64,000 bases of DNA from an uncultured Candidatus Saccharibacteria bacterium (GTDB lineage Bacteria > Patescibacteriota > UBA1384 > XYA2-FULL-43-10 > 1-14-0-10-43-13). Both the position numbers and the translations under genes were made by a program. Location: positions 19,959 to 83,958 of the forward strand of contig CAYILA010000003.1 of the NCBI GenBank assembly GCA_964364265.1, written 5' to 3'. Below, in pieces: positions 45,215-60,018 of the stretch; position 1 is the stretch's first letter, and every line of letters begins with the position of its first letter. The notes below the pieces were generated by a model, which searched no databases, was not told where the DNA came from, and saw only the letters and a list, made by a program, of their open reading frames with translations.

Positions 45215-47782
45215 ATGAAAAAGTATGAGTTCTCTCAAATAGATAAAAAGTGGCAGGAATACTGGAAGAGTACTAGTTATGGCGTCGCCAAAGATGAGGG
45301 TGGGAATAAACATTACCATCTAATCGAGTTTCCTTATCCTTCGGGCGAGGGTCTGCATGTCGGTCATTGTATGGGTTATGGGGCATCTGATGCATACTGC
45401 CGGATGAAAAGGATGCAAGGTTTCAATGTAATGTTCCCGATCGGTTGGGACGCTTTTGGTCTTCCGACTGAAAATTACGCTATTAAGACCGGCATCCATC
45501 CCCGCCTTGCCACCAAACAAAGTATTGATACATTTAAGAAACAAATCGAATCCCTAGGCTACTCTTTTGACTGGAAAAGAGAGATAAACACCACCGATCC
45601 GGAATACTATAAATGGACACAATGGATTTTTTTGCAGTTTTACAAACACGGCATTGTAGACCCTTCGACAGGCTCAGGGCAAGCTGGAAAATTGATTGAG
45701 GTCGCCGATGATGATACTACCACCCCTCGCCTTGCCTACCAAGCCGAAATGCCGATTAACTGGTGTCCTTCTTGTAAAATAGGGCTAGCCAATGAAGAAG
45801 TTATCGCCGGAAAATGCGAGCGCTGTGGAACCGAAACAATCAAAAAAATGCAGAAGCAGTGGCTGTTACGTATTACGGCGTATGCAGACCGCTTAATTTC
45901 CGACCTTGATACGGTTGATTATTTAGACAAGATCAAAACTCAACAAGTAAATTGGATCGGGCGATCTACTGGAACAAATATTCGCTTTACTGTCATTCCT
46001 GCGAACGCAGGAATCTTAAAGATCCCTGATCAAGTCAGGGATGACAATATTGTCGAAATTTTTACCACCCGTACCGATACTTTATTCGGTTGTACCTATA
46101 TTGTTTTGTCACCCGAGCATCCAATTATTGCAAAACTAAAAACAAATATTGCCAATTGTAATAAAGTTAATCAATATATTGAAGATTCTGCTAAAAAGTC
46201 CGACATGGAACGAACGGAATTGGCCAAAGAGAAAACCGGAGTCAAACTGGAAAGTATTAAAGCCATAAATCCGATTAACAATGAAGAGATCGATGTTTGG
46301 ATTGCCGATTATGTACTCGCTTCATACGGAACCGGCGCAGTAATGGCAGTTCCCGCTCACGACGAACGAGATTTTGAATTCGCCAAGAAATACGATATTG
46401 ATATTAAGCAAGTTATTACCGGCGATAATTATAATGACAATAAAGCTTTTACGGAATACGGCATATTAATTCATTCGGGTGGATTTGACGGCTTGACAAG
46501 TAAAGAAGCACAAGGGAAAATCACTATAAAACTAAAGGAAATTGGTGCCGGAGATTTTACTGTTAATTACAAACTTCGGGACTGGATTTTCTCCCGCCAG
46601 CATTATTGGGGCGAACCGATCCCAATTATTCATTGTGATAAATGCGGTACAATTCCAATGGATGAAAATGATTTGCCGCTAACTTTGCCGGAAGTGGAAA
46701 ATTACCAGCCAACCGTTACCGGCGAATCACCATTGGCTGCTATTCCAAATTGGGTCAACACAACTTGTCCGGAGTGCGGCGGTCCCGCAAAAAGAGAGAC
46801 CGACACTATGCCGAACTGGGCCGGCTCTAGCTGGTATTTCTTGCGTTACTGCGATCCGAAAAATATGAATGAATTTGCTTCGATGGACAAACTCGAATAT
46901 TGGTTAAATCCTGGTTTAGATGCCAGCGAGGCCCCGCGTAGCTCGAAGAGCGGAGGTGGGGTTGATATCTACAATGGTGGGATGGAACACACAACTTTGC
47001 ATTTGTTATATTCCCGCTTCTGGCACAAGTTTTTGTATGATTTAGGGAAAGTTCCTTCGAACGAGCCGTACCAAAAAAGAATCGCTCATGGTATAATACT
47101 GGGTCCCGACGGACAGAAGATGAGTAAGTCCCGCGACAATGTCATCAATCCGGATAAAATCGTAGAGAAGTACGGTTCCGATACTTTGCGTACCTATATT
47201 ATGTTTATCGGTCCATACGACCAGGAGTCCGCTTGGAACACTTCCAGCATCCAGGGAGTCTACCGCTTCCTCAACCGACTTTGGAATAATTATGATTTAG
47301 TCAATAACCAATCGGATGAAAAAGATCTATTAATTAAATTGAACCAAACCATCGATTGTGTTACCGCGGACTTGGAATCATTTAATTTAAATACGGTCGT
47401 CTCCAAATTGATGGAAATGAATAATATGATTGAAAAAATCGGTCATATATCTAAGGATTCGTATTCTAAATATCTTAAACTTATTTTTCCCGTAGCACCC
47501 CACATCTCATCCGAATTATTTGAAATGTTGGAAAAAGGCAAAATTGAAGCAAAAGAATGGCCTAAAACCGATTTAAATTATCTTTCCGCCGACCAGATTG
47601 AAATAGTCGTCCAAATCAACGGCAAGGTCAGGGCTAAAATGATGCTCGATGCCAATATTTCCGATCAGGAGATGGTTGATTTCGCCCTTAATTTACCCGA
47701 AGTGAAAGAATATATCGAAGACAAGAAGATAGTAAAGATAATCCCAGTCGCCAAGAAACTGGTCAGTATCGTAATCGCTTGA
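45215..47782 (+). CDS. leuS: Leucyl-tRNA synthetase
   Basis: HVGHCMGY (HIGH), KMSKS, and the CP1 editing domain. Start set at the ATG 14 nt after the tRNA; the track's 45140 start overlaps the tRNA. Confidence 0.95.
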   Translation: MKKYEFSQIDKKWQEYWKSTSYGVAKDEGGNKHYHLIEFPYPSGEGLHVGHCMGYGASDAYCRMKRMQGFNVMFPIGWDAFGLPTENYAIKTGIHPRLATKQSIDTFKKQIESLGYSFDWKREINTTDPEYYKWTQWIFLQFYKHGIVDPSTGSGQAGKLIEVADDDTTTPRLAYQAEMPINWCPSCKIGLANEEVIAGKCERCGTETIKKMQKQWLLRITAYADRLISDLDTVDYLDKIKTQQVNWIGRSTGTNIRFTVIPANAGILKIPDQVRDDNIVEIFTTRTDTLFGCTYIVLSPEHPIIAKLKTNIANCNKVNQYIEDSAKKSDMERTELAKEKTGVKLESIKAINPINNEEIDVWIADYVLASYGTGAVMAVPAHDERDFEFAKKYDIDIKQVITGDNYNDNKAFTEYGILIHSGGFDGLTSKEAQGKITIKLKEIGAGDFTVNYKLRDWIFSRQHYWGEPIPIIHCDKCGTIPMDENDLPLTLPEVENYQPTVTGESPLAAIPNWVNTTCPECGGPAKRETDTMPNWAGSSWYFLRYCDPKNMNEFASMDKLEYWLNPGLDASEAPRSSKSGGGVDIYNGGMEHTTLHLLYSRFWHKFLYDLGKVPSNEPYQKRIAHGIILGPDGQKMSKSRDNVINPDKIVEKYGSDTLRTYIMFIGPYDQESAWNTSSIQGVYRFLNRLWNNYDLVNNQSDEKDLLIKLNQTIDCVTADLESFNLNTVVSKLMEMNNMIEKIGHISKDSYSKYLKLIFPVAPHISSELFEMLEKGKIEAKEWPKTDLNYLSADQIEIVVQINGKVRAKMMLDANISDQEMVDFALNLPEVKEYIEDKKIVKIIPVAKKLVSIVIA

Positions 47783-47861
47783 CTCTTGATTATTGCTCTA
47801 TATTATGCGATAATATTTAGGTCATCATTAGCTAGATCCCCACTAAAATATTAATGATTGG

Positions 47862-47900
47862 TAGTTTCGTAATTTCGATTAATTCGTAATTTTGTAGGAG
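47862..47900 (+). repeat. TTCGTAATTT-type spacer repeat (rpmF leader)
   Basis: TTTCGTAATTTCGATTAATTCGTAATTTTGTAGGAG: tandem imperfect copies. Confidence 0.35.
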
Positions 47901-47911
47901 TTAGGAAATTT

Positions 47912-48091
47912 ATGGCTGAACCAAAGAAAAGAACCAACAACTCAAAACAAGGCATGCGGAGAATGCACGACAAAGTCGCCGCACCTTCACTTAATTATTG
48001 TCAGAGCTGCCACCAACCAATTCTGCGACATACGGTTTGTTATAATTGCGGTATGTACAAAAACACTAAAGTTCTCGATAAAAAGACATAA
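47912..48091 (+). CDS. rpmF: 50S ribosomal protein L32
   Basis: 59 aa, not in the ORF track. [50 protein letters not shown] is the L32 pattern with a C..C...C..C zinc ribbon. Confidence 0.8.
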
Positions 48092-48516: not shown

Positions 48517-49227
48517 ATGTCCACAACAGATGAATTAGAAAAAGAAATTGGGATACAATTTAAGGATAAAAAGCTATTGGAACAAGTATTTATTCACAGA
48601 TCGTACCTCAACGAACACAGAAACTCTTCACTCGAGCATAATGAACGACTCGAGTTTTTGGGCGATGCCGTTTTGGAATTGGCGGTCACTGAATATCTGT
48701 ATGGAAAATACAACAAGCCGGAAGGCGAACTGACCAGTTGGAGAAGCGCTTTAGTCAAGGGCGAATCTTTGTCCGAAGAAGCAAAACGGCTTGGCATCAA
48801 CGAACTGATTAAAACCTCCCGCGGAGAAGCAAAAAATCTTGGTAAAGCCAGAGATCTCATCTTGGCAAATGCCTTTGAAGCCCTTGTCGGTGGTATTTAT
48901 CTTGATCAAGGGTATGACGTCGTTTCTGAGTTTATTGAGCAAAATATCTGTTACAAATTAAAAGACATCTTAGAAAAAGGTCTTTATTACGATCCGAAAA
49001 GCAAATTCCAGGAACTCTCTCAAGAATCTCTTTCTATAACCCCGACCTATGAAGTCGTCTCGGAAGAAGGGCCGGATCATGCCAAGGTTTTTGTTGTGGC
49101 TGCTTATCTCGGCGACCAAAAAATAGCCGAGGGACAGGGTCCGTCCAAACAAAGAGCCCAATCCGATGCGGCTAAAAAATCCCTTGAATCGTGGGATGAA
49201 ACCATATCAAACTTTAATTCAAAGTAG
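48517..49227 (+). CDS. rnc: Ribonuclease III
   Basis: ERLEFLGDAVLELAV signature and a C-terminal dsRBD. Confidence 0.9.
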   Translation: MSTTDELEKEIGIQFKDKKLLEQVFIHRSYLNEHRNSSLEHNERLEFLGDAVLELAVTEYLYGKYNKPEGELTSWRSALVKGESLSEEAKRLGINELIKTSRGEAKNLGKARDLILANAFEALVGGIYLDQGYDVVSEFIEQNICYKLKDILEKGLYYDPKSKFQELSQESLSITPTYEVVSEEGPDHAKVFVVAAYLGDQKIAEGQGPSKQRAQSDAAKKSLESWDETISNFNSK

Positions 49228-50182
49228 AACTCCACTCAACATTTTGCCAGCCCCAATCGAGCAGTTTTATTGATTCATCAGCCGAGGCGGTGGCATTATC
49301 GGCGGTTGTACGGATGATGACCCCGATTAGGGTGTGGTCGTCTCTCTTCGCCGCCGAAACCAGCACATGTCCCGCTTCCGGCATATAACCGGTCTTGACC
49401 CCGATAGCTCCCATATAGTTATAATCGGCAACCAACCGGTTAGAGTTCGTAACTTCATGCCAGATTGTGCTGTCGATATTTGTAAAGGCGTCTTGTTTGG
49501 TCTTTACAATTGCGGCGAATGTCTCATTTTTCAAGGCATGGCTGGCTGCCAAATACAAGTCATATGCGCTTGAATAACCGGTCGTGTCCAAACCGGCTGG
49601 ATCTTCATAGCGGGTGTCCATCATGCCCAGCTCTTTGGCTTTTTCATTCATTTTATCGACAAATCTGGTTATGCCGATGTCGCCATAACCATTCATCTTT
49701 TCAGCCAATGCATAGGCGGTATCATTACCGGATTTGATCAATAGGCCCTTCAGCAGTTCCCCGACTTTGACCTGTTCTCCCGGTCTGATAAACGTATCGG
49801 CTCCGACCTGACTTGAGGCCGTCTCTGAAATCGTCACAGTATCATCCAGCTTATAGTTTTCCAGGGATACGATCGCGGTCATTATTTTGGTGGTTGAAGC
49901 AATCGGAACGCGGTTCTTGATCCCCTCTTTTAATAAAATCTTGCCCGAATCATTGTCGACTAGGATATACTCGCTGGCGTAGATCAACGGTTTTTCTGCT
50001 CCGAATTTAACTTTGGGACGCGCAAGAATTTGCGGTAACGAAATATCAATATCAGAAGCAACCGCAATGTTTGTCGGATTCGTTTCCTTTACAATTATCG
50101 CTCTGTCGATCCTATCCGAGATCCCGCCAAGCCCTACCGTATTGAGAAGTATCGAGACAAAAATTAATGATTTAACTATCAT
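49214..50182 (-). CDS. D-alanyl-D-alanine carboxypeptidase (S11, PBP5-like)
   Basis: SxxK (ASTTK), SGN (KSGNDTA) and KTG motifs. N-terminal signal/TM. Confidence 0.8.
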   Translation of the reverse strand: MIVKSLIFVSILLNTVGLGGISDRIDRAIIVKETNPTNIAVASDIDISLPQILARPKVKFGAEKPLIYASEYILVDNDSGKILLKEGIKNRVPIASTTKIMTAIVSLENYKLDDTVTISETASSQVGADTFIRPGEQVKVGELLKGLLIKSGNDTAYALAEKMNGYGDIGITRFVDKMNEKAKELGMMDTRYEDPAGLDTTGYSSAYDLYLAASHALKNETFAAIVKTKQDAFTNIDSTIWHEVTNSNRLVADYNYMGAIGVKTGYMPEAGHVLVSAAKRDDHTLIGVIIRTTADNATASADESIKLLDWGWQNVEWSSTLN

Positions 50183-50901
50183 ATGATATCATTTTTCGTT
50201 ATTTGTTTTGTCCGGCCGCTTTTAAGATTTAATTTTGAAAGTTCTAATTTACCGATTCTGATTCTGACCAATTTAGCCACGGATAGTCCGATTTTACCAC
50301 ACATCTTCCTAATCTGTCGATTGTGGCCGGTGTGAAGAACCACATTAAAAATGACATATTTTTGACCGTTTTTGGTCTTCATGCGAAAGCTATCAACACT
50401 ATCGGCTTTCATCAGCTTTTTTTCAATCAATAAACCTCCGGTCATCCTGCCTTTGATTTTGTCAAATTCGACTTTCTCGCCTCGGTCAATCCAAACTTCG
50501 TACTCTTTTTCATGTTGAAATGAGGGATGGGATAATTTTTGGGCCAGATCGCCGTCGTTGGTCAGAATAATCAGGCCTTCCGAATCCTCATCCAATCTTC
50601 CAATCGGGTACAGACGAACACTCTCTGGACCAAAATCGGTTACCTTTTTCCTTCCTTTTTCATCGATCGCCGCCGAAATCACTCCGGTCGGTTTATTTAA
50701 TACGATATAAACTTTCTCTTGATCGAATTCCACTGGTTTATTATTGTAATAGACCTTGTCAGTATCGCCAATGCAATCTCCCGGATCGGCAATTTTTTCG
50801 TTGATTTTAATCTTCCCAGCCAAAACCAGTTCGTCGGCTTTGCGCCGCGAACAAATCCCCGCTTCTGCGAGATATTTATTGATTCTTATCTTCTTAATCA
50901 T
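50179..50901 (-). CDS. Pseudouridine synthase, RsuA/RluB family (S4 + PSI)
   Basis: S4 domain N-terminus and catalytic GRLDEDSEGL. Confidence 0.85.
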   Translation of the reverse strand: MIKKIRINKYLAEAGICSRRKADELVLAGKIKINEKIADPGDCIGDTDKVYYNNKPVEFDQEKVYIVLNKPTGVISAAIDEKGRKKVTDFGPESVRLYPIGRLDEDSEGLIILTNDGDLAQKLSHPSFQHEKEYEVWIDRGEKVEFDKIKGRMTGGLLIEKKLMKADSVDSFRMKTKNGQKYVIFNVVLHTGHNRQIRKMCGKIGLSVAKLVRIRIGKLELSKLNLKSGRTKQITKNDII

Positions 50902-52327
50902 TTGTTTCGGTATCGGCAGTTTTTAACTCTTTACCTTCGGCTTCTTTTGCAAGTCGGATATGAACATCGGCTAATTGCTTTTCTGATACCAAAGACGGAG
51001 CGCCCATCGTTAAATCTTTTGCGTCTCCCGTTTTCGGGAAAGCCATCACTTCGCGGATAACATCTTCGCCTGCCAGTATCGCCGCCAATCGATCAATTCC
51101 CGGCGCGATCCCGCCGTGCGGCGGGGCGCCGTATTCAAACGCCTCCAACATATGGCCGAATCTTCTTCTCTTCTCGTCCTCTGTTACACCAAGCAACTCA
51201 AATATCTTATCCTGAATATCTCTTTTGTGGATTCTGATCGAACCGCCAGCGATTTCATATCCATTCAACACGAGATCGTAACAGTAAGCTTTGACATCTC
51301 TCGGATTGGAATCCAATTTATCTAAATCCTCTTTTTGAGGCATCGTAAAGGGATGGTGAGTTGAAACCAATTTTTTATCGGTCTCTGAATATTTAAATAA
51401 TGGCGCATCAATGATCCAGACAAAAGCCAACTCATTCTTGTCATCCTTGTTTTCGCGCAAGTCCGGCTTGTCGGAGTGATATTTTTCCATCGATTCGGCA
51501 TAAGTCATTCGATGAAACGGTTTGCTTTTAATCTTTTTCTCCGGAAAAACCTTTTCCACCAGGCCCGTCATCATCTCCTCAACCAATGAAAGAATATCTT
51601 CCTGTTCAACGAAACTCATCTCTATATCAAGCTGAGTAAATTCCGGCTGGCGGTCGCCGCGCTGATCCTCGTCCCTAAAACACCGCACAATCTGGTAATA
51701 ACGCTCTATCCCGCCAACCATTAGGAGTTGTTTAAACTGCTGGGGACTTTGTGGTAAAACATAGAAATTGCCCGGGTATAACCGTGAAGGAACGATGTAT
51801 TCTCTGGCCCCCTCCGGTGTCGACTTTGTCAAGTACGGCGTTTCAATCTCTCTAAAATTCTTGTCGTTTAAATAATCGCGAAAATATTTAATAATTTCGT
51901 GCCGTAGAGTAATATTTCTAGTTAATCTCTCGCTTCTCAAGTCTAAATAACGATATTTCAAGCGAAGTTCTTCATCAACTCCGCCGGTATCCTTGTCAAT
52001 TTCAAAAGGTGGTGTCTTGGCTTGGTTCAACACTTCGATATCAATCGCCTCCATCTCAACTTTTCCAGTCGCAATGCTCTCATTGGTAAGATTTTCCGGT
52101 CTTGCTTTGATTTTGCCAATTATTGACAATACCCATTCCGGACGAAGGTCGGTTACCTTTTCATATGCCAAAGATCCCGGCACCATCACCACCTGCAAAA
52201 GGCCCGACATATCGCGAAGATCGATAAAGACAATTTTGCCGTGGTCCCGTCTTTTGTGAACCCAACCGGATATCTTTACCGTTTTGCCGACTTCTGCTAT
52301 TGTTTTTGAAATAAGTGTTCTTTCCAT
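50894..52327 (-). CDS. aspS: Aspartyl-tRNA synthetase (short, archaeal/ND-type architecture)
   Basis: OB anticodon-binding N-terminus. Class II motif 2 FRDEDQRGDRQPEFTQLDIE and motif 3 GGIAPGIDRL. 477 aa, no GAD insertion. Confidence 0.9.
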   Translation of the reverse strand: MERTLISKTIAEVGKTVKISGWVHKRRDHGKIVFIDLRDMSGLLQVVMVPGSLAYEKVTDLRPEWVLSIIGKIKARPENLTNESIATGKVEMEAIDIEVLNQAKTPPFEIDKDTGGVDEELRLKYRYLDLRSERLTRNITLRHEIIKYFRDYLNDKNFREIETPYLTKSTPEGAREYIVPSRLYPGNFYVLPQSPQQFKQLLMVGGIERYYQIVRCFRDEDQRGDRQPEFTQLDIEMSFVEQEDILSLVEEMMTGLVEKVFPEKKIKSKPFHRMTYAESMEKYHSDKPDLRENKDDKNELAFVWIIDAPLFKYSETDKKLVSTHHPFTMPQKEDLDKLDSNPRDVKAYCYDLVLNGYEIAGGSIRIHKRDIQDKIFELLGVTEDEKRRRFGHMLEAFEYGAPPHGGIAPGIDRLAAILAGEDVIREVMAFPKTGDAKDLTMGAPSLVSEKQLADVHIRLAKEAEGKELKTADTETND

Positions 52328-52340
52328 ATTGCTCGCTTTC

Positions 52341-54569
52341 TTAAGAATCCCTTAATTTTGCGCTGTATTGATTTTCAATTTTACTAATTATTTTTGAAAT
52401 AGTCTCATCCGCTTCCACATCGGTCAAGGTCTTTTCCATATCCTGCAGATAAATATGGTAGGCAAGATTTTTCTTACCGGCTCCCAATTTATCTGAAGCA
52501 TATTCGTCAAACAATTCTACTCTGTTTATCTTATCCGAAATCTCCAGAATGGAACCGGATATTTCAGATGGATTTGTATTGGTGTCAACAACAAACGCCA
52601 AATCGCGCGCTACCACCGGATACTTGGAAACCGGTTTGTAATGGTATTCCTTATCATCCAGCCGCAACTCCAAATCATCTTCATTGTCCAAATCGGCTAA
52701 TGAGATTTCAATCGCATAAACAACCGGCTTCCTGATCTTCAACAAAAGCAACTCGCCCCCTTTCAATTCCTTGATTTCGATATTTTCATCATTTTGAATC
52801 TGTGATAACTTCGCGTGAATGTTATCGATTTCTTTTCTGGCATCTTTGCCGGTAGATACGACCGCCAAATTGGTTCGCTCTTTTTCTTCATTAAACACAT
52901 TTCCAATTTCAAATAGTAATATTGGATCGAAAAGACCGTTTTTTGCGACATTTTTCAAAAGGGACGGAATCAATGAATCGCGCAGATATTTGTTTTCATG
53001 TTGAATCGGATTGGCAACCTCGAGCAAATTGTCGGTATTCATATTTTCTGTTTTTATATCCTTTTCAGACAGGAAAGAATAATTCTTAACTTCGGAAAAT
53101 CCCAGATCGGAGATCATGTCTTTCAACCTTTCCTTCTGGTAGTAAATTGATTTTTGCGGCTTTTCCGCTTCGGGAAGTTCTAATCTTTTTAAATTATCGA
53201 TTCCATAAATTCTCTCAACCTCCTCTGCCAAATCCTGCCAGACGGTAATATCGTGTCGCCATGAAGGAATTTTGGCTTCCGCTCCTTCTATTTTAAAACC
53301 GAGGTATTTCAAGGTTGAATTGATATCATCCTCCGATAGATTCAAATCAAGGAGTTGGTTAATTTTTTGATATGGAATGTTTATCTGTCTTTCGATATCT
53401 TTTTCGCCGCTGTACGCAAAACCCAAATCGTCTCCGGCGGCAATTTCAATAATCATCTTGGCCGCTTTAACAAGCGCATTTTTAACCATCGCCGAATCAA
53501 TTCCTCTCTCAAATCGGTAGCTGGCATCGGAAACAATATTATGAGTTTTGGCTATTTTTCTAATTACAGACGAACTAAATTCTGCCGCCTCCAATATGAT
53601 GTTTTTCGTTGTTTCGGTTACGCCTGTATCTTGACCGCCCATTACTCCGGCCAGGGCCAAAGCTTTTTCCTTATCGGCAATTAACAGATCATTTTCTTGA
53701 AGTTTAATATTTTTACCGTCCAATAGCATAATACTTTCACCATCGCGGGAATCCCTAATCGTAATGGTATGACCGGAAACTTTATCGGCATCGAAAGCAT
53801 GAAGCGGATGGCCGAGATCCAACATGATGTAGTTAGTGATATCAACAATATTATTAATCGGTTTGAACCCAAGGATTATAAGTCGTTTTTTAAGCCACTC
53901 CGGAGAAGGGCCGACCGAGATATTATTTATCCGGTATCCGTAATATCGTGGGCAACTTTCTTTCTTTTCGATTTCTATCTTTAGCTCTGCAGTAATTGCC
54001 GCATCTTTACCCTCGTCATTTTTAATTACTGTTTTGCTAAATCCGGCGATTTCCCGAGCTAATCCGAGATGCGACAGGCAGTCGCCACGGTTCGGAGTGA
54101 TTTCCGCCTCAATCACCATGTCGCTCTCTATGTATTTTGATAATTTCTCGCCTATTCGATAATTCTGATCTAGAATTTTAATGCCGCTTCCCTCTTCCCC
54201 CAACCCGAGTTCTTTCTCTGAACAGAGCATCCCATTTGATTTAATACCGCGTATTTCAGCCGCTTTTAAGATTTGACCGCCGATTTTAGACCCAACAAGC
54301 GCCAAAGGGACAATTTGTCCAACTTCAATATTTGGTGCGCCGCAGACAACTTCAAATTCATGGCTACCGTTTGTTACTTTCGCCAACCGTAAACGATCGG
54401 CATTTGGATGAGGGCTGATCTCCAGTATTTTGGCAATAATAATATTGTCATCCAATCCAAAGTCGGCCGATTCGATCTCCGTTCCGGTAACAGTTAACTT
54501 ATCGATCAATTCCTGATCGGATATGCTTATATCAACATAATCTTTCAGCCAGCTTTTTAAATACTTCAT
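52341..54569 (-). CDS. pheT: Phenylalanyl-tRNA synthetase beta subunit
   Basis: tRNA-binding OB N-terminus, B3/B4, B5 and a FDX-ACB-like C-terminus. Start set at the ATG (MKYLKSW). Confidence 0.9.
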   Translation of the reverse strand: MKYLKSWLKDYVDISISDQELIDKLTVTGTEIESADFGLDDNIIIAKILEISPHPNADRLRLAKVTNGSHEFEVVCGAPNIEVGQIVPLALVGSKIGGQILKAAEIRGIKSNGMLCSEKELGLGEEGSGIKILDQNYRIGEKLSKYIESDMVIEAEITPNRGDCLSHLGLAREIAGFSKTVIKNDEGKDAAITAELKIEIEKKESCPRYYGYRINNISVGPSPEWLKKRLIILGFKPINNIVDITNYIMLDLGHPLHAFDADKVSGHTITIRDSRDGESIMLLDGKNIKLQENDLLIADKEKALALAGVMGGQDTGVTETTKNIILEAAEFSSSVIRKIAKTHNIVSDASYRFERGIDSAMVKNALVKAAKMIIEIAAGDDLGFAYSGEKDIERQINIPYQKINQLLDLNLSEDDINSTLKYLGFKIEGAEAKIPSWRHDITVWQDLAEEVERIYGIDNLKRLELPEAEKPQKSIYYQKERLKDMISDLGFSEVKNYSFLSEKDIKTENMNTDNLLEVANPIQHENKYLRDSLIPSLLKNVAKNGLFDPILLFEIGNVFNEEKERTNLAVVSTGKDARKEIDNIHAKLSQIQNDENIEIKELKGGELLLLKIRKPVVYAIEISLADLDNEDDLELRLDDKEYHYKPVSKYPVVARDLAFVVDTNTNPSEISGSILEISDKINRVELFDEYASDKLGAGKKNLAYHIYLQDMEKTLTDVEADETISKIISKIENQYSAKLRDS

Positions 54570-54624
54570 AAGTTTCCCAACTACTACCAATTTACAGATT
54601 TATCCTGTCTGCCGACAGTCAAGC

Positions 54625-54716
54625 GAAATTACGAATCCTACAAATATCAGCGCTAACGAAAGTCAAACCATTCGTATTTTCGTATTTTCGAATTATTCGT
54701 AAATTCGTAGTATTTC
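54625..54716 (+). repeat. TTCGTAATTT-type spacer repeats (pheS-pheT spacer)
   Basis: GAAATTACGAAT (inverted copy), then ATTCGTATTTTCGTATTTTCGAATTATTCGTAAATTCGTAG. Confidence 0.35.
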
Positions 54717-54718
54717 GG

Positions 54719-55402
54719 TTACTTAAATTGTTTTAAGAATCGAAGATCCCCGCTTCTAAATAACCTGATTTCGTCGATATCGTATTTTAACATCGTCAGC
54801 CGGTCAATTCCCATACCCAGAGCGAATCCGGAATATTGGTCGGGGTCAATTTTCATATTTGAAAGAACCTTCGGATAGACCATGCCCGAACCCAAAACTT
54901 CCATCCATTTACCATTGAATTTAATGTCGACATCAATCCCCGGCTCGACAAAAGGATAATGATGGGGGCGGTAGCGAAGTTCAATATTATCGCCGTACAT
55001 TTTCATCAAAAATTTCTCAATCGTCCAAAGAAGATGCCCGACTTTGACATCCTTATCTATATAGAGGGCTTCCAATTGGTACAGTGTTGTCTCATGTTTG
55101 GCGTCTGTCGCTTCATTCCGATAGCAAACTCCCGGCACAATTACCCGAATCGGTGGAGTCTTGTTTTCGCCGTACCGAACTTGTAAATTAGAAGTATGCG
55201 TCCTTAGGACTCTGCCGTCTTTCAGCCAAAAAGTGTCCTGAACATCTCTGGCCGGATGGTCTGAAGGGATGTTTAGTGCATCAAAATTGTACCATTCGGT
55301 ATCTACTTCCGGACCTTCATAGACATAAAAACCAAGTTCCTCAAATATTTTTACCGCTTGGCGCAGATATATTGTAATTGGATGCAGATTACCTTTATTC
55401 AT
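54719..55402 (-). CDS. pheS: Phenylalanyl-tRNA synthetase alpha subunit (catalytic core only, 227 aa)
   Basis: Class II core (HPARD, FRNE, GLGIDRL) with no N-terminal coiled-coil region. Confidence 0.85.
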   Translation of the reverse strand: MNKGNLHPITIYLRQAVKIFEELGFYVYEGPEVDTEWYNFDALNIPSDHPARDVQDTFWLKDGRVLRTHTSNLQVRYGENKTPPIRVIVPGVCYRNEATDAKHETTLYQLEALYIDKDVKVGHLLWTIEKFLMKMYGDNIELRYRPHHYPFVEPGIDVDIKFNGKWMEVLGSGMVYPKVLSNMKIDPDQYSGFALGMGIDRLTMLKYDIDEIRLFRSGDLRFLKQFK

Positions 55403-55796
55403 TTTTTTTTGATCTTTTAGAAATACCCTTCTTTTTTGTTTGGAAAAAAAGTTCCAACAAAGTCACGACTACTACTACCGATATGCCAATCCACCAATCC
55501 AGAACCCGAAAACCTCGTAGGGCGAACATGGCGGTCAGGGCGAAGGAAAATATCATGCCCTGCCTAACAGACGGCCAAAAATATGAATAGATTAGTTTGT
55601 CGGCTTTCGCTTTGATCTTTAAGTAATAGATACCGATCGCCGCAATCCCACCGAATGTCAGAAACATAGAAATATAGAAATTAATAAAGACGGCGGAACC
55701 GGATTGGTACGGATTATTATTAAAAACGTCTAAGACCAGCGAGGCAAAAGCGAATAAGGTAATGGTAAACAAAAAAAATAAATTTCTCTTCAGCAT
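55395..55796 (-). CDS. Hypothetical 4-TM membrane protein
   Basis: Hydrophobic 133 aa ORF between rbfA and pheS. Confidence 0.35.
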   Translation of the reverse strand: MLKRNLFFLFTITLFAFASLVLDVFNNNPYQSGSAVFINFYISMFLTFGGIAAIGIYYLKIKAKADKLIYSYFWPSVRQGMIFSFALTAMFALRGFRVLDWWIGISVVVVVTLLELFFQTKKKGISKRSKKNE

Positions 55797-56137
55797 TATT
55801 TTTTCTCTTTATGAATTTCCTCAATCAAACTCTCTATCTTACTGGCGTATTCCGGCGAATTATCAAGATAAAATCGGATTTTGGGGTGTTTTCGTAATTC
55901 TAATTTCTTTGATAATTCCTTCGTCATTGCTGGACCCTCTCTCTGACATTCAATAATCGTCATTTCGGGATTGTTCAGAGCCGATATCCAAACCTTGGCG
56001 AAGCCGAGATCCTTTGACACTTCGACATTTGTGACAGTTATTATCTGGTCAGCAAATAATTTCAACAGTAATTTTGAAATCTCATGGCCTACCAACTCAT
56101 CGACTTTTTCCATCCTATCACTCATATTACTTTGCAA
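55796..56137 (-). CDS. rbfA: Ribosome-binding factor A
   Basis: KH-like RbfA pattern (...ITVTNVEVSKDLGFAKVWIS...). Confidence 0.8.
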   Translation of the reverse strand: MQSNMSDRMEKVDELVGHEISKLLLKLFADQIITVTNVEVSKDLGFAKVWISALNNPEMTIIECQREGPAMTKELSKKLELRKHPKIRFYLDNSPEYASKIESLIEEIHKEKK

Positions 56138-56167
56138 TTATATCAGAAATATTAACGATTAGCCACA

Positions 56168-56204
56168 TAAAAACCCGATTCCGAAATGATGAATCGGGTT
56201 TTTA
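56168..56204 (-). terminator. Rho-independent terminator after rplM-rpsI
   Basis: AACCCGATTC...GAATCGGGTT 10-bp stem flanked by an A-run and a T-run. Confidence 0.6.
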
Positions 56205-56259
56205 TTATATAGTTAAGATATTTAGCGCTTTGCCAATCCTAGCTTGGCTTTGAAAACGC

Positions 56260-56640
56260 TTAGCGTTTTGCCCATTGAGGCGCTCGTCTGGCGCGCTTCA
56301 GACCTGGTTTCTTCCGCTCTTTTTCCCGCGGATCGCGGGTTAGAAATCCGGCTTTTTTTAAAGTCAATCGGTATTCAGGATCAAACGCCTCAAGAGCTCT
56401 GGCAATACCATGTCTGATGGCCTCCAGCTGGCTTTCCTTGCCACCACCTTTGACTCTAATCGATACTCCGAATATGCCTTTCTTACCAACTAATTCCAGG
56501 GGATAGATGATATTAGCCGGAAGTTCCGTTTCTTTGTCGTTGACGGTAATTTTATTGGGATCTTTGAAAATTCGAACAGTGGCTACCGCCGTTTTTCTTC
56601 GTCCGGTACCGTACCAATATTTTTTTACTTCTTTTTCCAT
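56260..56640 (-). CDS. rpsI: 30S ribosomal protein S9
   Basis: GGGKESQLEAIRHGIARAL and C-terminal ...KKPGLKRARRAPQWAKR. Confidence 0.95.
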   Translation of the reverse strand: MEKEVKKYWYGTGRRKTAVATVRIFKDPNKITVNDKETELPANIIYPLELVGKKGIFGVSIRVKGGGKESQLEAIRHGIARALEAFDPEYRLTLKKAGFLTRDPREKERKKPGLKRARRAPQWAKR

Positions 56641-57056
56641 TATTTTTTCTCGATATTTACAAATTTAACATTTTGATGCGGATGGGAAGGACCGGAATAA
56701 ATTTTTAAACGGGAAGTAACCGCATCCCGCAGTTTATTCTTTGGAATCATCCCGTAAACCGCTTTTTTAATAATCTCTTCGGGATGATACTCTCTCATCT
56801 GTTTGAAAGTTGATTTCTTAAGATTTCCGATATAACCGGTGTGCTTGTAATAAACTTTCTGATCCTCTTTTTTACCGGTAACTTTTACCTTTTTGGCATT
56901 AATTACTACCACCATGTTGCCGTTGTCTTTATTCTTGGCAAAATCGGTTGAAAGCTTGCCACGCAAAGAATCGGCGATCTTTGTTGAGATCCGGCCCAAT
57001 ATTTCGCCTTCGGCGTCGTACAAATACCAACTTTTATTATTTTCCTTGTTTGTCAT
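56640..57056 (-). CDS. rplM: 50S ribosomal protein L13
   Basis: WYLYDAEGEILGR N-terminus, typical of L13. Confidence 0.95.
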   Translation of the reverse strand: MTNKENNKSWYLYDAEGEILGRISTKIADSLRGKLSTDFAKNKDNGNMVVVINAKKVKVTGKKEDQKVYYKHTGYIGNLKKSTFKQMREYHPEEIIKKAVYGMIPKNKLRDAVTSRLKIYSGPSHPHQNVKFVNIEKK

Positions 57057-57516
57057 TCTTGGCTTTCTTGGGCTCTTTTATCATCACATCGACATCTTTG
57101 GTTTTCTTTGTGTCTTTTGTTTCATTCTTATCCTCAACTTTTTCACTCTCCCCCTCTTCTTTAGTCACGAAAACCTTTTTATCAACCAACTCAATCCGAA
57201 CCATTCGGCTATTGTCACCCAGACGATTTTTAAGGTGATAACTTCTTGCAAAACCGCTTTTGCGACCGGCATATCTTGGAACCAACTCTTCAATTACTTT
57301 CTTTACCGCACTTTTATCAAGTAAAATTCCTTCAAGATTTCGGCGGACTGCAAGATCGGCCTTTTTGCTTCTGGCAATAATCCGGTCAAATTGAGATTTC
57401 AAGACTTTTGATTTTGCTTTTGTGGTATCAACTTTTTCATACAATACCAAGGAGGTAAGAATATTTCTTACCATTAATCGTCTATGATCGGCTTTTCGGC
57501 TTAAATTCTTACTCAT
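57037..57516 (-). CDS. rplQ: 50S ribosomal protein L17 with K/E-rich C-terminal extension
   Basis: HRRLMVRNILTSLVLYEKVDTTKAKSK L17 core. Confidence 0.9.
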   Translation of the reverse strand: MSKNLSRKADHRRLMVRNILTSLVLYEKVDTTKAKSKVLKSQFDRIIARSKKADLAVRRNLEGILLDKSAVKKVIEELVPRYAGRKSGFARSYHLKNRLGDNSRMVRIELVDKKVFVTKEEGESEKVEDKNETKDTKKTKDVDVMIKEPKKAKNDKQGK

Positions 57517-58462
57517 ATCTTGATATTACGTCGGCAATTTCAGTGATTCCCTTTTTGCCTAATCCTTTAATCTCTTCAATCTTTAGGGGCGACATTCTTT
57601 TTAAACCGGCAATCGTTTTAATACCGGCATTCAAAAGCGCATTAGTTGTTCTCTGCGAGAAACCGGCTTCTTCTATCTTTACTTTGCTTTCGCCCAGTTG
57701 TTCCTTATCCTCATCCTCTATTAATTTCAGAACCTCCGGGGTCTCAACAATTTCAGATACCTTTTCAGTCAACGATGGATTAAAGCTTGGGTCCGAGATA
57801 ATCGCTTCAAAGTGGTCAACCAAAACTCTTGATGCCTCTTTAATGGCATCTTGCGCGGTAATCGTGCCGTCCGTCGTAATTTCCATGGTGATCTTATCAA
57901 AGTTTGTCATTTGTCCGACACGTGTGTTTTCAATTAAAAAGCTGACGCGTTCGACTGGAGAAAATGAGGCGTCAATTCCGATCCAGCCAATCTCTTTCTT
58001 GTCTTCTTTGGTGCCGGTTGGACGAAAACCTCTGTCTTTTTCAACCATCAGTTCAAGCTGAAGGCTAGCACCCTTATCAACATTGGCGATACGGGCCTCG
58101 GGATTTGAGATTTCAATCTGGCTGTTCGCTTGAAAATCAGCCGCCGTAATCTGGCAAGGCCCCTTCTTGGAAAGGGTCAGTATTACCGGTTCCTCTGAAT
58201 ATGATTTAAAATTAATGCTTTTTAAGTTCAATAGCAATTCGATCATATCCTCTTTAATACCTTTTATGGCTGAAAATTCGTGGTCTACGCCTTCAACTCT
58301 AAAATAAGTTGCGGCTGAACCGACAATAGAGGAAAGCAAAACTCTTCGAATTGCATTTCCGATGGTTGAGCCGTATCCTGGATAAAGCGGTTCGATGACG
58401 AATTTACTTTTGTTATCGCTAATGGCTGTCTCTTTAATTGTTGGCAATCCGATTTTGTCCAT
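57509..58462 (-). CDS. rpoA: DNA-directed RNA polymerase alpha subunit
   Basis: NTD dimerisation domain (EPLYPGYGSTIGNAIRRVLLSS) and a C-terminal alpha-CTD helix-hairpin-helix. Confidence 0.95.
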   Translation of the reverse strand: MDKIGLPTIKETAISDNKSKFVIEPLYPGYGSTIGNAIRRVLLSSIVGSAATYFRVEGVDHEFSAIKGIKEDMIELLLNLKSINFKSYSEEPVILTLSKKGPCQITAADFQANSQIEISNPEARIANVDKGASLQLELMVEKDRGFRPTGTKEDKKEIGWIGIDASFSPVERVSFLIENTRVGQMTNFDKITMEITTDGTITAQDAIKEASRVLVDHFEAIISDPSFNPSLTEKVSEIVETPEVLKLIEDEDKEQLGESKVKIEEAGFSQRTTNALLNAGIKTIAGLKRMSPLKIEEIKGLGKKGITEIADVISRYE

Positions 58463-58485
58463 ATAATCTCCGATCTTTAAATATT

Positions 58486-59082
58486 TTATCTTGAATAGAA
58501 CTCAATAATTAAGTTTTCATTTATTGGCGTGTCGATCTCTTCCCTGATAGGCAGGTGATTGATTTTGCCTTTCAGGTTTTTCTTGTCAAACTCCATCCAG
58601 CTCGGGCAGTGCTCGCTTTTGATTTCAAAAAAGCTTTCTTTCTTTTTCGGTTCGATTTGATCCAACTCTTTTACGGTGTACGACGGAATATTGACCTTTT
58701 TGCCGTTCAATTTGATCAATCCGTGGTTTACCATCTGTCTGGCATGCGCCCGCGAGACGGCAAAACCAAATCTGAAAACCACATTATCAAGTCGAAGCTC
58801 TAAAAGACGCATCAAATTCTCGGCCGTGTTGCCGGAAAGTTTCTCCGCTTTTGTAACATAGTTTCTAAATTGAATTTCTCTAGTGCCGTAAATTTCTTTG
58901 GCGCGTTGTTTTTCGGCTAATTGCCGGCCGTATTCACTCTTTTTGCCTCTCATTTCAGTGGGACCATGGGCACCCGGTCGGTAGGGACGTTTTACCATAG
59001 CGCATTTAGGCGAAAAGCAACGCTCGCCTTTGAGCATCAATTTTTCACCGGCGCTTCTGCATTTTTCACATGAATCCGACAT
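58486..59082 (-). CDS. rpsD: 30S ribosomal protein S4
   Basis: N-terminal zinc ribbon C..C...C..C, then the S4 domain (LDNVVFRFGFAVSRAHARQMVNHG). Start set at the ATG with a GAAGGG SD. Confidence 0.9.
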   Translation of the reverse strand: MSDSCEKCRSAGEKLMLKGERCFSPKCAMVKRPYRPGAHGPTEMRGKKSEYGRQLAEKQRAKEIYGTREIQFRNYVTKAEKLSGNTAENLMRLLELRLDNVVFRFGFAVSRAHARQMVNHGLIKLNGKKVNIPSYTVKELDQIEPKKKESFFEIKSEHCPSWMEFDKKNLKGKINHLPIREEIDTPINENLIIEFYSR

Positions 59083-59087
59083 ATTAA

Positions 59088-59516
59088 TTAGACCCTTCTT
59101 GGTTTCTTTGGACGACAACCGTTATGCGCGATTGGGGTAATATCTTTAATTGTTGAAACACTGATTTTGGCATTAATTAAGGCCCGAACTGCCGATTCCC
59201 GACCCGATCCGACACCGGAGACATAAACCTTGGCTTCCGAAAAGCCCATCGATTTTGCTTTTTCAATCGCAGCCGAGGCGGCCAGTTGGGCGGCGTATGG
59301 AGTCGATTTTTTGGTACCCTTAAATCCGATTGAACCGGCCGAAGCCCAGGAAATAACACCGCCATTATCGTCGGTTATCGAGATAATGGTATTATTGAAG
59401 GTTGACTGGATATAAATACTTCCGGAGTGAACACTTCGCTTTATTTTCTTTTTAACCCGAAGGGGGGCTTTTGGGGCAACCTTCTTCTCTTCTTTTTTGG
59501 GTGCTGCTTTTGCCAT
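59088..59516 (-). CDS. rpsK: 30S ribosomal protein S11
   Basis: [14 protein letters not shown]-type core and the C-terminal ...[13 protein letters not shown]. Confidence 0.95.
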
Positions 59517-59534
59517 AAGTTTCCAAATTCCCTA

Positions 59535-59622
59535 CTAATTTACAAATCTTTCGAAAGTACGAATATTAATGAATTAATTTGTAATTTTGTAATTTCGTTG
59601 AATTCGTACATTCGTAGTGTTT
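59535..59622 (+). repeat. TTCGTAATTT-type spacer repeats (rpsM-rpsK spacer)
   Basis: AATTTACAAATCTTTCGAAAGTACGAAT...AATTTGTAATTTTGTAATTTCGTTGAATTCGTACATTCGTAG. Confidence 0.35.
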
Positions 59623-59631
59623 AGGTTGTTT

Positions 59632-60018
59632 CTATGTCTTCTCTGCCGACGGTTTTCTTCCCGATCCGACAGTAACTTTTTTGCCTCTTTTGGTTCTGGC
59701 ATTCGTTTTTGTTCGCTGTCCTCTGGCTGGCAAATTCTTTGAGTGCCGGTGACCGCGGTAAGAACCGATTTCTTTTAATCTCTTGATATTTCCGGTTACT
59801 TCCATCCGAAGATCCCCCTCTACCCGGTATTCCGAAATGGCTGTTCTGATCTTCTCGAGTTGGGTCGTGGTCAGATCTTTTACTTTAACGGAGTGATCGA
59901 CTCCGGCTTTTTCTAAAACCTTTTTTGAGATAGAAAGTCCGATACCATAAAGATAAGTCAAAGCGATTTCAACTCTTTTTTCATCCGGTAAATTTATGTT
60001 TGCAATTCTAACTGCCAT
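59632..60018 (-). CDS. rpsM: 30S ribosomal protein S13
   Basis: [12 protein letters not shown]-terminus and a basic C-terminal tail. Confidence 0.95.

What the first reader, a model, noticed from the sequence alone, without database searches (positions are those of the whole stretch)
54570..54600. Conserved roughly 30-nt leader motif immediately 5' of the rpmF, rpsK and pheT start codons
The sense strand upstream of each start reads UGUAAAUUGGUAGUAGUUGGGAAACUUAUG (pheT, at 54570-54600), UGUAAAUUAGUAGGGAAUUUGGAAACUUAUG (rpsK, at 59517-59547) and CGUAAUUUUGUAGGAGUUAGGAAAUUUAUG (rpmF, at 47883-47914). The consensus is GUAAAUU-GUAG-NNG-UU-GGAAAYUUAUG(GC). The GIY-YIG ORF carries a shortened version (GGUAGGGGAAAAUG). 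Other genes here use ordinary GGAGG or GGTGG Shine-Dalgarno sites (nusA, rpsU, nusB). The motif is therefore not simply this organism's SD. It looks like a shared translational operator or enhancer for a subset of translation-apparatus genes.
Basis: seen in the sequence. Interest (0 to 1): 0.55.

Follow-up and report, generated by a model that had tools for sequence, protein, structure and literature searches.

The report
Palindromic repeat between Patescibacteria genes
The shared "leader motif" is the gene-facing tip of a short palindromic repeat that has been inserted between neighbouring genes of this ultra-small groundwater bacterium and supplies the ribosome-binding site of the downstream gene; it is not a dedicated, conserved control site for translation genes.

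Summary
The three motif copies are real: 3 matches, 0 expected by chance. But they are only the last ~30 nt of a ~57-nt repeat arm built from about 8-nt ATTCGTAA-like units. The window holds five arms. Two lie inverted against the rpsM and pheS stop codons, so the rpsM-rpsK and pheS-pheT spacers are each one palindrome running from stop codon to start codon.

The organism is a Patescibacteria (CPR) bacterium from Hainich groundwater. The element is missing from the same spacers in its closest available relatives, and PheS here carries one extra codon where the element displaced the native stop codon.

The same arm architecture occurs in many CPR genomes, mostly as 80-130-nt palindromes. They sit between co-directional genes, convergent genes and, more rarely, divergent genes, next to genes of all kinds.

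In this population the strict motif does favour translation genes: 8 of 9 carriers (rpmF, rpsK, pheT, rpsS, rplP, rplE, rplS, lysS; also folA).

Best reading: a MITE/REP-like intercistronic repeat, transcribed within operons, whose outer end provides the Shine-Dalgarno-like AGGA and the spacing to the ATG. A conserved translational operator is not supported. I found no description of this family in the literature I could search.

The parts
47857..47914 (+). Single repeat arm ending at the rpmF ATG (47912-47914). Units: TTGGTAGT TTCGTAAT TTCGATTAA TTCGTAAT TTTGTAGG AGTTAGGA AATTT-ATG. It has no inverted partner.
   Evidence: nhmmer E = 1.8e-13. Strict motif hit. rpmF identified by TIGR01031. 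The surrounding RNA has no significant fold, z = -0.66.
47779..47806 (+). Canonical sigma-70-like promoter (TTGACT, 16-nt spacer, TATTAT) about 50 nt upstream of the rpmF arm. If it is used, the arm is transcribed as 5' UTR.
   Evidence: Best match of the consensus scan over 47000-60400, 10 of 12 positions. This is a consensus match only, not proof of use.
54567..54637 (-). Start-facing arm of the pheS-pheT palindrome, ending at the pheT ATG (54567-54569).
   Evidence: nhmmer E = 4.8e-7. Strict motif hit. Inverted repeat I1: 27-nt arms, 81% complementary.
54597..54623 (-). Nested 27-nt insertion inside the pheT arm (CTTGACTGTCGGCAGACAGGATAAATC), containing a small hairpin CTGTC-GGCA-GACAG.
   Evidence: Alignment of the five arms and the sequence itself. 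Analogous GC-rich hairpins are nested in arms of sister copies.
54670..54726 (+). Inverted partner arm. Its outer tip overlaps the pheS stop codon (54719-54721) and the extra final Lys codon of pheS.
   Evidence: nhmmer E = 6.4e-14 and inverted repeat I1. PheS ends FLKQFK* here against FLKQF* in three relatives; I read this.
59514..59567 (-). Start-facing arm of the rpsM-rpsK palindrome, ending at the rpsK ATG (59514-59516).
   Evidence: nhmmer E = 4e-11. Strict motif hit. rpsK identified.
59577..59634 (+). Inverted partner arm abutting the rpsM stop codon (59632-59634).
   Evidence: nhmmer E = 8.1e-12. Inverted repeats I1-I3. rpsM identified.

Best explanation
The motif is the gene-proximal tip of one arm of a dispersed palindromic repeat of the MITE/REP kind that is widespread in Patescibacteria.

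Architecture (shown). Each arm is a run of five to seven units of about 8 nt: (ATTCGTAW)x2, TTCG-NNNN-A, TTYGTAAW, TTNGTAG. In this lineage the arm continues GAG-ATTAGGAAAYTT up to the ATG. Most copies are two arms back to back, with the GTAG ends facing outward and 80-130 nt from GTAG to GTAG.

Insertion (shown for two sites, inferred for the third). In this genome whole palindromes were inserted into the very short spacers between co-transcribed genes rpsM|rpsK and pheS|pheT. A single arm lies in the rpmF leader.

How it works (inferred). The element is transcribed as part of the operon mRNA. The left tip ends at or supplies the upstream stop codon. The two arms pair into one long hairpin that brings the stop and start codons together. 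The right tip supplies the ribosome-binding region (AGGA, 5 nt, AUG) of the downstream gene. An insertion therefore does not break the operon.

Why the three leaders look alike. The repeats share ancestry (paralogy) and the arms stay homogeneous within a genome. The likely cause is that the reiterated ATTCG units are recognised by a still unknown protein (a transposase/recombinase or a host factor), or that the arms undergo gene conversion. The similarity does not come from selection for a common operator.
For: Five arms at three spacers:
- Two spacers are stop-to-start palindromes.

Insertion:
- The rpsM-rpsK spacer is 5 nt in the closest relative (S11 92% identical), with the same S13 C-terminus and S11 N-terminus. 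No arm is present in the 90%-identical relative.
- pheS-pheT spacers in three syntenic relatives are 50, 20 and 35 nt and contain no ATTCG arrays.
- PheS here has one extra codion-level change: one extra codon plus a new stop codon lying inside the element tip.

Family:
- The pattern TTCGNNNNATTYGTAMWTTNGTAG gives more than 108 loci in GTDB genomes. Almost all are Patescibacteria labelled by their submitters as Uhr-, Berkel-, Sacchari-, Azam-, Falkow-, Doudnabacteria and Paceibacterota.
- There are 61 back-to-back pairs. Among classifiable pairs, 32 lie between a gene end and a gene start, 8 between two gene ends and 4 between two gene starts. The GTAG end is mostly 1-25 nt from a stop codon or 3-30 nt from a start codon.

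Hairpin:
- In 32 stop-to-start spacers the RNA folds as one hairpin, median z = -10. A median of 5 nt is left free after the stop codon and 11 nt before the end of the start codon. The window copies give -46.3 kcal/mol with z = -3.9, and -18 kcal/mol with z = -1.9.

Transcribed context:
- Canonical sigma-70-like promoters lie upstream of the rpmF arm and of the fusA palindrome on a sister contig.

Copying of whole elements:
- The rpsS, rpsJ and lysS copies share the same nested GC-rich hairpin.
- Subfamilies with a conserved centre exist in Uhrbacteria and in genome STB_112.

Gene neighbours elsewhere are diverse.
Against: - No target-site duplication could be seen at aligned element boundaries.
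- No transposase or autonomous parent element was found.
- In two genomes the arms are 88% identical between copies while the central 18 nt are at the random level. A simple recent copy-and-paste burst does not predict this; it needs selection or gene conversion acting on the arms.
- The arm sequence is very similar across distant CPR classes, which is unusual for neutral selfish DNA.
- In this population 10 of 11 known sites adjoin translation genes, which random insertion does not explain.
- There are no expression data, so transcription through the element, hairpin formation and use of the AGGA as a ribosome-binding site are all inferences.
- The two window palindromes are the weakest hairpins of the set.
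Confidence: 0.62

Rival explanations
1. Translational operator or enhancer. The AU-rich (UUCGUAAU)n leader plus AGGAAA is an RNA element selected to boost or co-regulate translation of highly expressed translation-apparatus genes. The inverted partner would act as an anti-enhancer that is opened when the upstream cistron is translated.
For: - 8 of 9 strict-motif carriers, and 10 of 11 known sites in this population, adjoin ribosomal-protein, elongation-factor or aminoacyl-tRNA-synthetase genes.
- Every site has a start-facing arm at a fixed distance from the ATG.
- The rplB|rpsS spacer is occupied both here and in the distinct Hainich MAG H43-bin163.
Against: - The element is absent from orthologous leaders in the nearest relatives.
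- folA is also a carrier.
- In other genomes the same arm precedes unrelated genes at about background frequency: 5 of 31 in the two richest genomes.
- Arms also face gene ends and lie between convergent genes.
- There is no Rfam family and no conserved fold for the single arm.
Confidence: 0.15
2. Outward-facing promoter cassette. Each arm is a compact promoter with geometry TTYG-N17-TAnnTTnG, resembling the Bacteroidetes -33/-7 type, that fires just after GTAGG and gives 13-14-nt leaders. Pairs would then be bidirectional promoters.
For: - TAATTTTG in the rpmF arm matches the Bacteroidetes -7 consensus TAnnTTTG, with TTCG 17 nt upstream (consensus taken from PMC7366714).
- In genomes carrying the AT-rich arm variant, single arms face gene starts about 16 times against 4 (my tally).
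- Many downstream genes are first in their operon or highly expressed.
Against: - Pair contexts follow ordinary intergenic proportions. Eight pairs lie between convergent genes, and 32 have one arm pointing into the 3' end of a gene.
- The organism has canonical TTGACA/TATAAT-type promoters, including ones upstream of the rpmF arm and of the fusA palindrome.
- The sigma-70 scan finds nothing in the arms on the sense strand.
- Most copies sit inside operons that are co-transcribed in other bacteria.
Confidence: 0.08
3. Arrays of binding sites for a conserved CPR DNA-binding protein. The model is the phased 8-bp operators of ribbon-helix-helix proteins such as MetJ metboxes or ParG boxes. The arrays would mark gene boundaries and serve regulation, nucleoid organisation or recombination. 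On this view the elements are maintained by the host rather than selfish.
For: - ATTCG recurs with a strict 8/8/9/8 phasing, and the same architecture is found across distant CPR groups.
- Arms are 88% identical within a genome while the palindrome centre is random.
- There is no target-site duplication and no transposase.
Against: - No candidate protein was identified.
- The element is absent from orthologous spacers of close relatives.
- Subfamilies are copied as whole units, including nested insertions and centres.
- Copy number varies widely between genomes.
- The comparison with ribbon-helix-helix operators rests on my own knowledge only.
Confidence: 0.1
4. Chance similarity of three AU-rich leaders, or simply this organism's Shine-Dalgarno context.
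For: GGAAAYTTATG on its own, with one mismatch allowed, occurs no more often than chance: 5 found against 5.5 expected.
Against: - The full motif gives 3 matches against 0 expected.
- The five arms have E-values down to 6e-14.
- Hundreds of related arms exist in other genomes.
Confidence: 0.01

Closest known systems
REP / BIME / REPIN elements (repetitive extragenic palindromes of E. coli and Pseudomonas)
   Same: - Short non-coding repeats that are dispersed, extragenic and often located inside operons.
- They occur as inverted doublets that fold into a long hairpin in the mRNA.
- The arms are better conserved than the spacer.
- A conserved GTAG is present (for REPs this is from my own knowledge).
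- REP hairpins close to stop codons are reported to affect mRNA stability and translation of the upstream gene (my own knowledge; not checked here).
   Different: - A REP unit is itself a small palindrome with GTAG at its 5' head. Here each arm is a run of direct ~8-nt units that cannot fold alone, and GTAG is at the outer end.
- No RAYT (Y1 transposase) was looked for or found.
- Here the tips reach and supply the stop codon and the ribosome-binding site.
Bacterial MITEs inserted in operons (Correia/NEMIS of Neisseria, RUP and BOX of Streptococcus pneumoniae, Rickettsia palindromic elements)
   Same: - About 100-150 bp with terminal inverted repeats and no coding capacity.
- Many copies per genome, with presence/absence differences between relatives.
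- Co-transcribed with neighbouring genes, and able to supply expression signals or even codons.
- BOX elements are also modular with repeated sub-units (my own knowledge).
   Different: - No target-site duplication and no cognate IS element were identified.
- The arms are built of phased 8-nt units.
- The centre is not conserved in two genomes.
- The same arm architecture is shared across several CPR classes.
Ribosomal-protein autoregulatory mRNA leaders (for example the S4/alpha-operon, L20 and L10 leaders)
   Same: Located just 5' of ribosomal-protein and translation genes and overlapping the ribosome-binding site.
   Different: - Those leaders are structured mimics of rRNA sites, specific to one operon and conserved at orthologous positions.
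- This element is a multi-copy repeat, is absent from orthologous leaders, has no Rfam match and occurs in both orientations.
Foldback transposons of eukaryotes, compared for architecture only
   Same: Long inverted arms composed of short tandem sub-repeats, with a heterogeneous central loop (my own knowledge).
   Different: A eukaryotic, kilobase-scale, transposase-linked family. No relationship is implied.

Membership tests
MITE (miniature inverted-repeat transposable element) | Terminal inverted repeats bounding a short non-coding element | tested here: met
   The pheS-pheT element has 27-nt tips that are 81% complementary. There are 61 back-to-back pairs in other genomes, spanning 57-214 nt.
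MITE (miniature inverted-repeat transposable element) | Multiple dispersed copies, with presence/absence differences between related genomes | tested here: met
   Three sites in the window and eight more in the same population. Orthologous sites are empty in relatives.
MITE (miniature inverted-repeat transposable element) | Target-site duplication flanking each copy | tested here: inconclusive
   Aligned copies with their flanks show no obvious duplication. A 2-3-nt TT(T) duplication at the pheS-pheT and lysS copies cannot be separated from the tips.
MITE (miniature inverted-repeat transposable element) | A related autonomous IS element with matching ends that encodes the transposase | not tested
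   None was noticed in the loci I read, but I made no systematic search for arms flanking a coding region. The IS30-like gene on L002 has no ATTCG arms next to it. Whole genomes could not be scanned.
REP / REPIN | The unit is a 20-40-nt imperfect palindrome headed by GTAG | tested here: not met
   Arms are direct arrays of 8-nt units. The single rpmF arm shows no fold, z = -0.66. GTAG is present but at the outer end.
REP / REPIN | Inverted doublets forming a hairpin, located outside genes | tested here: met
REP / REPIN | A cognate RAYT (Y1 transposase) gene in the genome | not testable with these tools
Ribosomal-protein / translational operator leader | Conserved at the orthologous leader in related genomes | tested here: not met
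   Absent from the rpsM-rpsK spacer and from the pheS-pheT spacer. Only the rplB|rpsS spacer is occupied in a second species.
Ribosomal-protein / translational operator leader | Restricted to the regulated gene set | tested here: inconclusive
   8 of 9 strict-motif carriers in this population are translation genes. In the Uhrbacteria genome only 2 of 21, and in genome SO_2017_LW4_138 only 3 of 10, start-facing arms precede translation genes.
Ribosomal-protein / translational operator leader | A defined RNA structure recognised by a regulator | tested here: not met
   No Rfam match at the gathering threshold or at E <= 1. There is no structure in the single arm.
Sigma-70 promoter | -35 and -10 hexamers at 16-18-nt spacing on the sense strand | tested here: not met
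   The scan finds none in the arms on the gene strand. The only match is a 9-of-12 hit on the opposite strand at 59539-59567. A 10-of-12 promoter lies upstream of the rpmF arm.
Intrinsic terminator | GC-rich hairpin followed by a run of U | tested here: not met
   No terminator-like site is reported at any of the three spacers.

The most novel reading that the evidence does not exclude
The ATTCG-unit arms are reiterated recognition sites for a protein conserved across Patescibacteria. The stop-hairpin-RBS palindromes would then be a lineage-wide, host-maintained intercistronic module that sets translational coupling, mRNA processing or mRNA stability inside highly expressed operons of these streamlined genomes. 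In this population that means the ribosomal-protein, elongation-factor and aminoacyl-tRNA-synthetase operons. On this reading it is a new post-transcriptional control layer, not junk DNA.
Probability: 0.17. Interest if true: 0.75.

Novelty: new variant of a known kind. Interest (0 to 1): 0.5.

Why it matters
Patescibacteria have small genomes with short intergenic regions, and almost nothing is known about their gene-expression signals. This work found a repeat family shared by several CPR groups. It inserts exactly between stop and start codons, even inside ribosomal-protein operons, and carries its own stop codon and ribosome-binding site.

If it is selfish DNA, it shows how such elements survive in very compact genomes. 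If the arms are protein-binding sites, it points to an unrecognised regulatory or genome-organising system in CPR.

There are practical consequences too. The repeats coincide with contig ends in at least one MAG (L056 and L057 of genome STB_112), so they may break assemblies. They can also be mistaken for conserved regulatory leaders, as happened here.

Tried and rejected
- **Rfam.** Searches at the gathering threshold and at E <= 1 gave nothing on the elements.
- **Sigma-70 promoter or terminator inside the arms.** Not found. Canonical promoters lie upstream instead.
- **Target-site duplication.** Not visible in aligned Uhrbacteria copies.
- **Pair-specific covariation between the two arms of a palindrome.** Within-pair identity equals between-pair identity in three genomes, permutation p from 0.5 to 0.99. 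So there is no evidence of compensatory evolution. The comparison was ungapped and the arms vary little.
- **Association with the hrcA-grpE-dnaK and groEL loci across genomes.** By my own rough estimate this is not significant after allowing for the number of core gene families, and the element sits at different spacers in each genome.
- **Phage origin.** Only 4 pattern matches in 2.9 million viral contigs.
- **IS30-like transposase on a sister contig (L002).** It has no ATTCG arms beside it.
- **Literature.** Searches for the repeat strings, and for MITE/REP elements in CPR, found no description. Papers on promoters and on the TM7x transcriptome were uninformative.
- **The GGTAGGGGAAAATG before the 85-aa ORF.** It is not a member of the family.
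- **General promoter type of the organism.** Rejected, because only 5 arms occur among about 70 genes and canonical promoters exist.

Full report
**1. The observation**

The three sequences are present as described. The degenerate pattern built from them hits only 47886-47914 (+), 54567-54595 (-) and 59514-59543 (-). None of 100 dinucleotide-preserving shuffles gave a match. The downstream ORFs are L32 (rpmF), PheT and S11 (rpsK). The upstream neighbours are leuS, pheS and rpsM (S13). Most other genes in the window have AGGAG-type Shine-Dalgarno sites. The window is part of a 64,330-bp contig from Hainich groundwater (well H51, 0.1-µm fraction). Its proteins are closest to those of Patescibacteria MAGs.

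**2. The motif is the end of a longer repeat with inverted partners**

- Directly upstream of each motif the sequence continues in an ~8-nt rhythm. For rpmF the units read TTGGTAGT TTCGTAAT TTCGATTAA TTCGTAAT TTTGTAGG AGTTAGGA AATTT-ATG.
- Two further copies lie on the opposite strand in the same spacers, at 54670-54726 and 59577-59633.
- A profile of the arm finds exactly five copies in 64 kb, with E-values from 6e-14 to 5e-7. The next hit has E = 0.36.
- The pheS-pheT spacer (149 nt) and the rpsM-rpsK spacer (115 nt) are therefore each one palindrome running from the stop codon of the upstream gene to the ATG of the downstream gene. The pheS-pheT tips are 27 nt long and 81% complementary.
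- As RNA, the pheS-pheT spacer folds at -46.3 kcal/mol (z = -3.9) and the rpsM-rpsK spacer at -18 kcal/mol (z = -1.9). The lone rpmF arm has no fold.
- The pheT arm carries a nested 27-nt insertion with a small hairpin (54597-54623).

**3. It is an insertion, not a conserved leader**

- In the closest available relative (S11 92% identical) rpsM and rpsK are separated by 5 nt: TAA-AAAAT-ATG. The S13 C-terminus and the S11 N-terminus are the same as here.
- The 90%-identical relative shows no arm in the 48 nt before rpsK.
- Three relatives with identical synteny (rbfA-...-pheS-pheT-aspS-...) have pheS-pheT spacers of 50, 20 and 35 nt with no ATTCG arrays.
- Their PheS ends FLKQF*. Here it ends FLKQFK*, and the extra AAG and the TAA lie inside the left tip of the element (AAGTAACC, which mirrors GGAAACTT). 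I read this. The element therefore displaced the native stop codon and supplied a new one.
- No Rfam family matches at the gathering threshold or at E <= 1.

**4. The family outside this window**

Almost all are Patescibacteria MAGs. One Uhrbacteria genome contributes dozens of arms. Others are labelled by their submitters as 'Patescibacteria group' MAGs from several sites, Saccharibacteria, Berkelbacteria, Azam-, Falkow- and Doudnabacteria, and Paceibacterota. A few non-CPR hits are at about the chance level I estimated, apart from one Saprospiraceae MAG with several loci.
- The architecture is constant: two or three ATTCGnnn units, one 9-nt unit with four free positions, then ATTYGTAM and ATTNGTAG. 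The sequence flavour is specific to each genome.
- I found 185 arms, and 61 back-to-back pairs in CPR loci. GTAG-to-GTAG spans cluster at about 81-90 and 103-112 nt.
- Among classifiable pairs, 32 lie between the end of one gene and the start of the next, 8 between two gene ends and 4 between two gene starts. That is roughly what any intergenic occupant would show, and not what a promoter or leader would show. Gene calls in these loci came from a simple longest-ORF heuristic, so a minority of the classifications may be wrong.
- The GTAG end lies mostly 1-25 nt from a stop codon or 3-30 nt from a start codon, so the element fills the spacer.
- In the 32 stop-to-start cases the spacer RNA folds as one long hairpin (median z = -10). 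It leaves a median of 5 nt after the stop codon and 11 nt before the end of the start codon.

**5. Which genes are neighbours**

- NCBIfam and Pfam identify genes behind start-facing arms as dnaA, rpsS, efp, atpF, nifU, pth, ybaB, prfA, rpsT, folD, def, groEL, grpE, ackA, miaB, tkt, rplR, topA, rplJ and lexA. I chose that sample because the N-termini were recognisable, so it is biased.
- I then took every start-facing arm in the two richest genomes, which is unbiased. In the Uhrbacteria genome 2 of 21 precede translation genes (rplC, hisS). The rest are uvrA, lexA, hrcA, ftsH, scpB, a MacB-type permease, a DsbA-like protein, a host-attachment protein and many proteins without a family. In genome SO_2017_LW4_138 the figure is 3 of 10 (prfA, rpsT, def). 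By my own rough estimate that is about background.

**6. In this population the bias to translation genes is real**

Their coverage (7-8x) is similar, and the arm tips are near-identical to those in the window, so they are probably from the same genome.
- The new carriers are rpsS, rplP, rplE, lysS, rplS and folA. The arm profile adds copies at tuf|rpsJ and in the fusA 5' UTR.
- Known sites are therefore rpsG|fusA, tuf|rpsJ, rplB|rpsS, rpsC|rplP, rplX|rplE, rpsM|rpsK, rpmA|rplS, pheS|pheT, ?|lysS, leuS..rpmF and thyA|folA.
- 8 of 9 strict-motif carriers, and 10 of 11 sites, adjoin translation genes.
- All sites have the GTAGGAG-ATTAGGAAAYTT-ATG tip on the start side. Several have T(A/G)ACCAAATCYCCTAC, with the stop codon inside it, on the other side.
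- rplB|rpsS is also occupied in the distinct MAG H43-bin163.
- The cause of the bias is open. Possibilities are local hopping within the S10-spc-alpha gene clusters, preference for or tolerance in highly expressed tight operons, or function.

**7. Promoter or transcribed element?**

- The arm geometry TTYG-N17-TAATTTTG recalls the Bacteroidetes -33/-7 promoter consensus (consensus from PMC7366714).
- Against a promoter: canonical TTGACT-16-TATTAT lies about 50 nt upstream of the rpmF arm. On the sister contig a terminator plus TTGACA-17/18-TACAAT precede the whole fusA palindrome (read by eye).
- No sense-strand sigma-70 match lies in the arms. Most copies sit inside operons, and eight pairs lie between convergent genes.
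- I conclude that the elements are transcribed as 5' UTR or intercistronic RNA.

**8. Mobile, or maintained by the host?**

For copying of whole units:
- the rpsS, rpsJ and lysS copies share one nested GC-rich hairpin;
- some Uhrbacteria copies, and the copies in genome STB_112, share their centres.

Against a simple recent burst:
- in the Uhrbacteria genome and in SO_2017_LW4_138 the outer 34 nt of the arms are 87-89% identical between copies, while the middle 18 nt are at the shuffled level, 0.40 against 0.40 and 0.49 against 0.47;
- no target-site duplication is visible;
- no transposase was found;
- the arm is similar across distant CPR groups.

These points suggest that the arms are kept by sequence-specific recognition or by gene conversion. 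The 8-bp phasing resembles operators of ribbon-helix-helix proteins (my own knowledge). That is a lead only.

**9. Mechanism I commit to**

Shown:
- it is a dispersed palindromic repeat;
- it was inserted at rpsM|rpsK and pheS|pheT;
- its tips coincide with the stop and start codons.

Inferred:
- it is transcribed within the operon;
- the arms pair and bring the stop and start codons together;
- the right tip provides AGGA, 5 nt and AUG as the ribosome-binding region, so insertion is tolerated and translational coupling may be preserved;
- the sequence identity of the three leaders is paralogy.

The inference of a conserved operator does not.

**10. Novelty**

I found no description of this family. 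String searches for the repeat and searches for MITE/REP elements in CPR returned nothing relevant. It belongs to the known kind 'intergenic palindromic repeats'. It is unusual in four ways: arms made of phased 8-nt units, tips that carry a stop codon and a ribosome-binding site, colonisation of ribosomal-protein operons in very compact genomes, and spread across CPR classes.

Noticed in passing
window 60019-60105: A different palindrome lies immediately upstream of the rpsM ATG. It has a perfect 17-bp stem made of 7-nt ATTAGAA units. The RNA fold is -32.3 kcal/mol with z = -4.55. It is the only such locus in the window.
   Followed up: partly
window 44766-45200: A 5' fragment of tRNA-Ala (gggcccatagcttagtt) precedes an 85-aa ORF at 44862-45119. 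An intact tRNA-Ala(GGC) follows at 45125-45200. This looks like a homing-endonuclease-type insertion with partial duplication of the tRNA gene.
   Followed up: no
window 54719-55796; L118, L120: pheS is split into a 133-aa ORF with no Pfam family and a 227-aa catalytic-core ORF. The same split occurs in syntenic relatives, so it appears to be a feature of the lineage rather than a frameshift.
   Followed up: partly
L004 9798-10001 and 10411-10563: A relative whose S11 is 81% identical has other fillers in the same operon. Its rpsM-rpsK spacer is 202 nt and palindromic. Its rpsK-rpsD spacer holds inverted arrays of GTAAGCT-type ~8-nt units. The architecture is analogous to the element studied here but the sequence is unrelated.
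   Followed up: no
L012, L062, L092, L100, L110 (Saprospiraceae MAG GFS_9243): A Bacteroidota MAG has several loci with tandem ATTCGTAA arrays ending in GTAG. Either CPR contigs were mis-binned into this MAG, or the repeat (or a promoter-like relative of it) also exists outside CPR.
   Followed up: no
L126 2620-2650 and 6560-6600; L131 about 1290-1330; L126 about 10375-10395; window 54597-54623: Small GC-rich hairpins are nested inside arms. The same ~30-nt insert (TCCGCCTCGGCTCGTGCCGACGCGAGACGG) is in the rpsS and rpsJ arms and, inverted, in the lysS copy. Different small hairpins sit in the fusA and pheT arms. This may be a second, tiny repeat family.
   Followed up: partly
L056 1-89 and L057 3766-3854 (MAG STB_112): Two contigs end in the same palindrome followed by the same downstream gene start. 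The repeats coincide with assembly breaks.
   Followed up: no
window 60100-60312 (- strand): By eye, the rpmJ (L36) ORF appears about 10 residues longer than usual because of an internal insertion.
   Followed up: no
L017, L026, L084, L106 (and L067, L088 for groEL): In several CPR genomes the element lies beside the hrcA-grpE-dnaK operon or directly before groEL, though at a different spacer in each. By my rough estimate this is not significant after multiple testing.
   Followed up: partly
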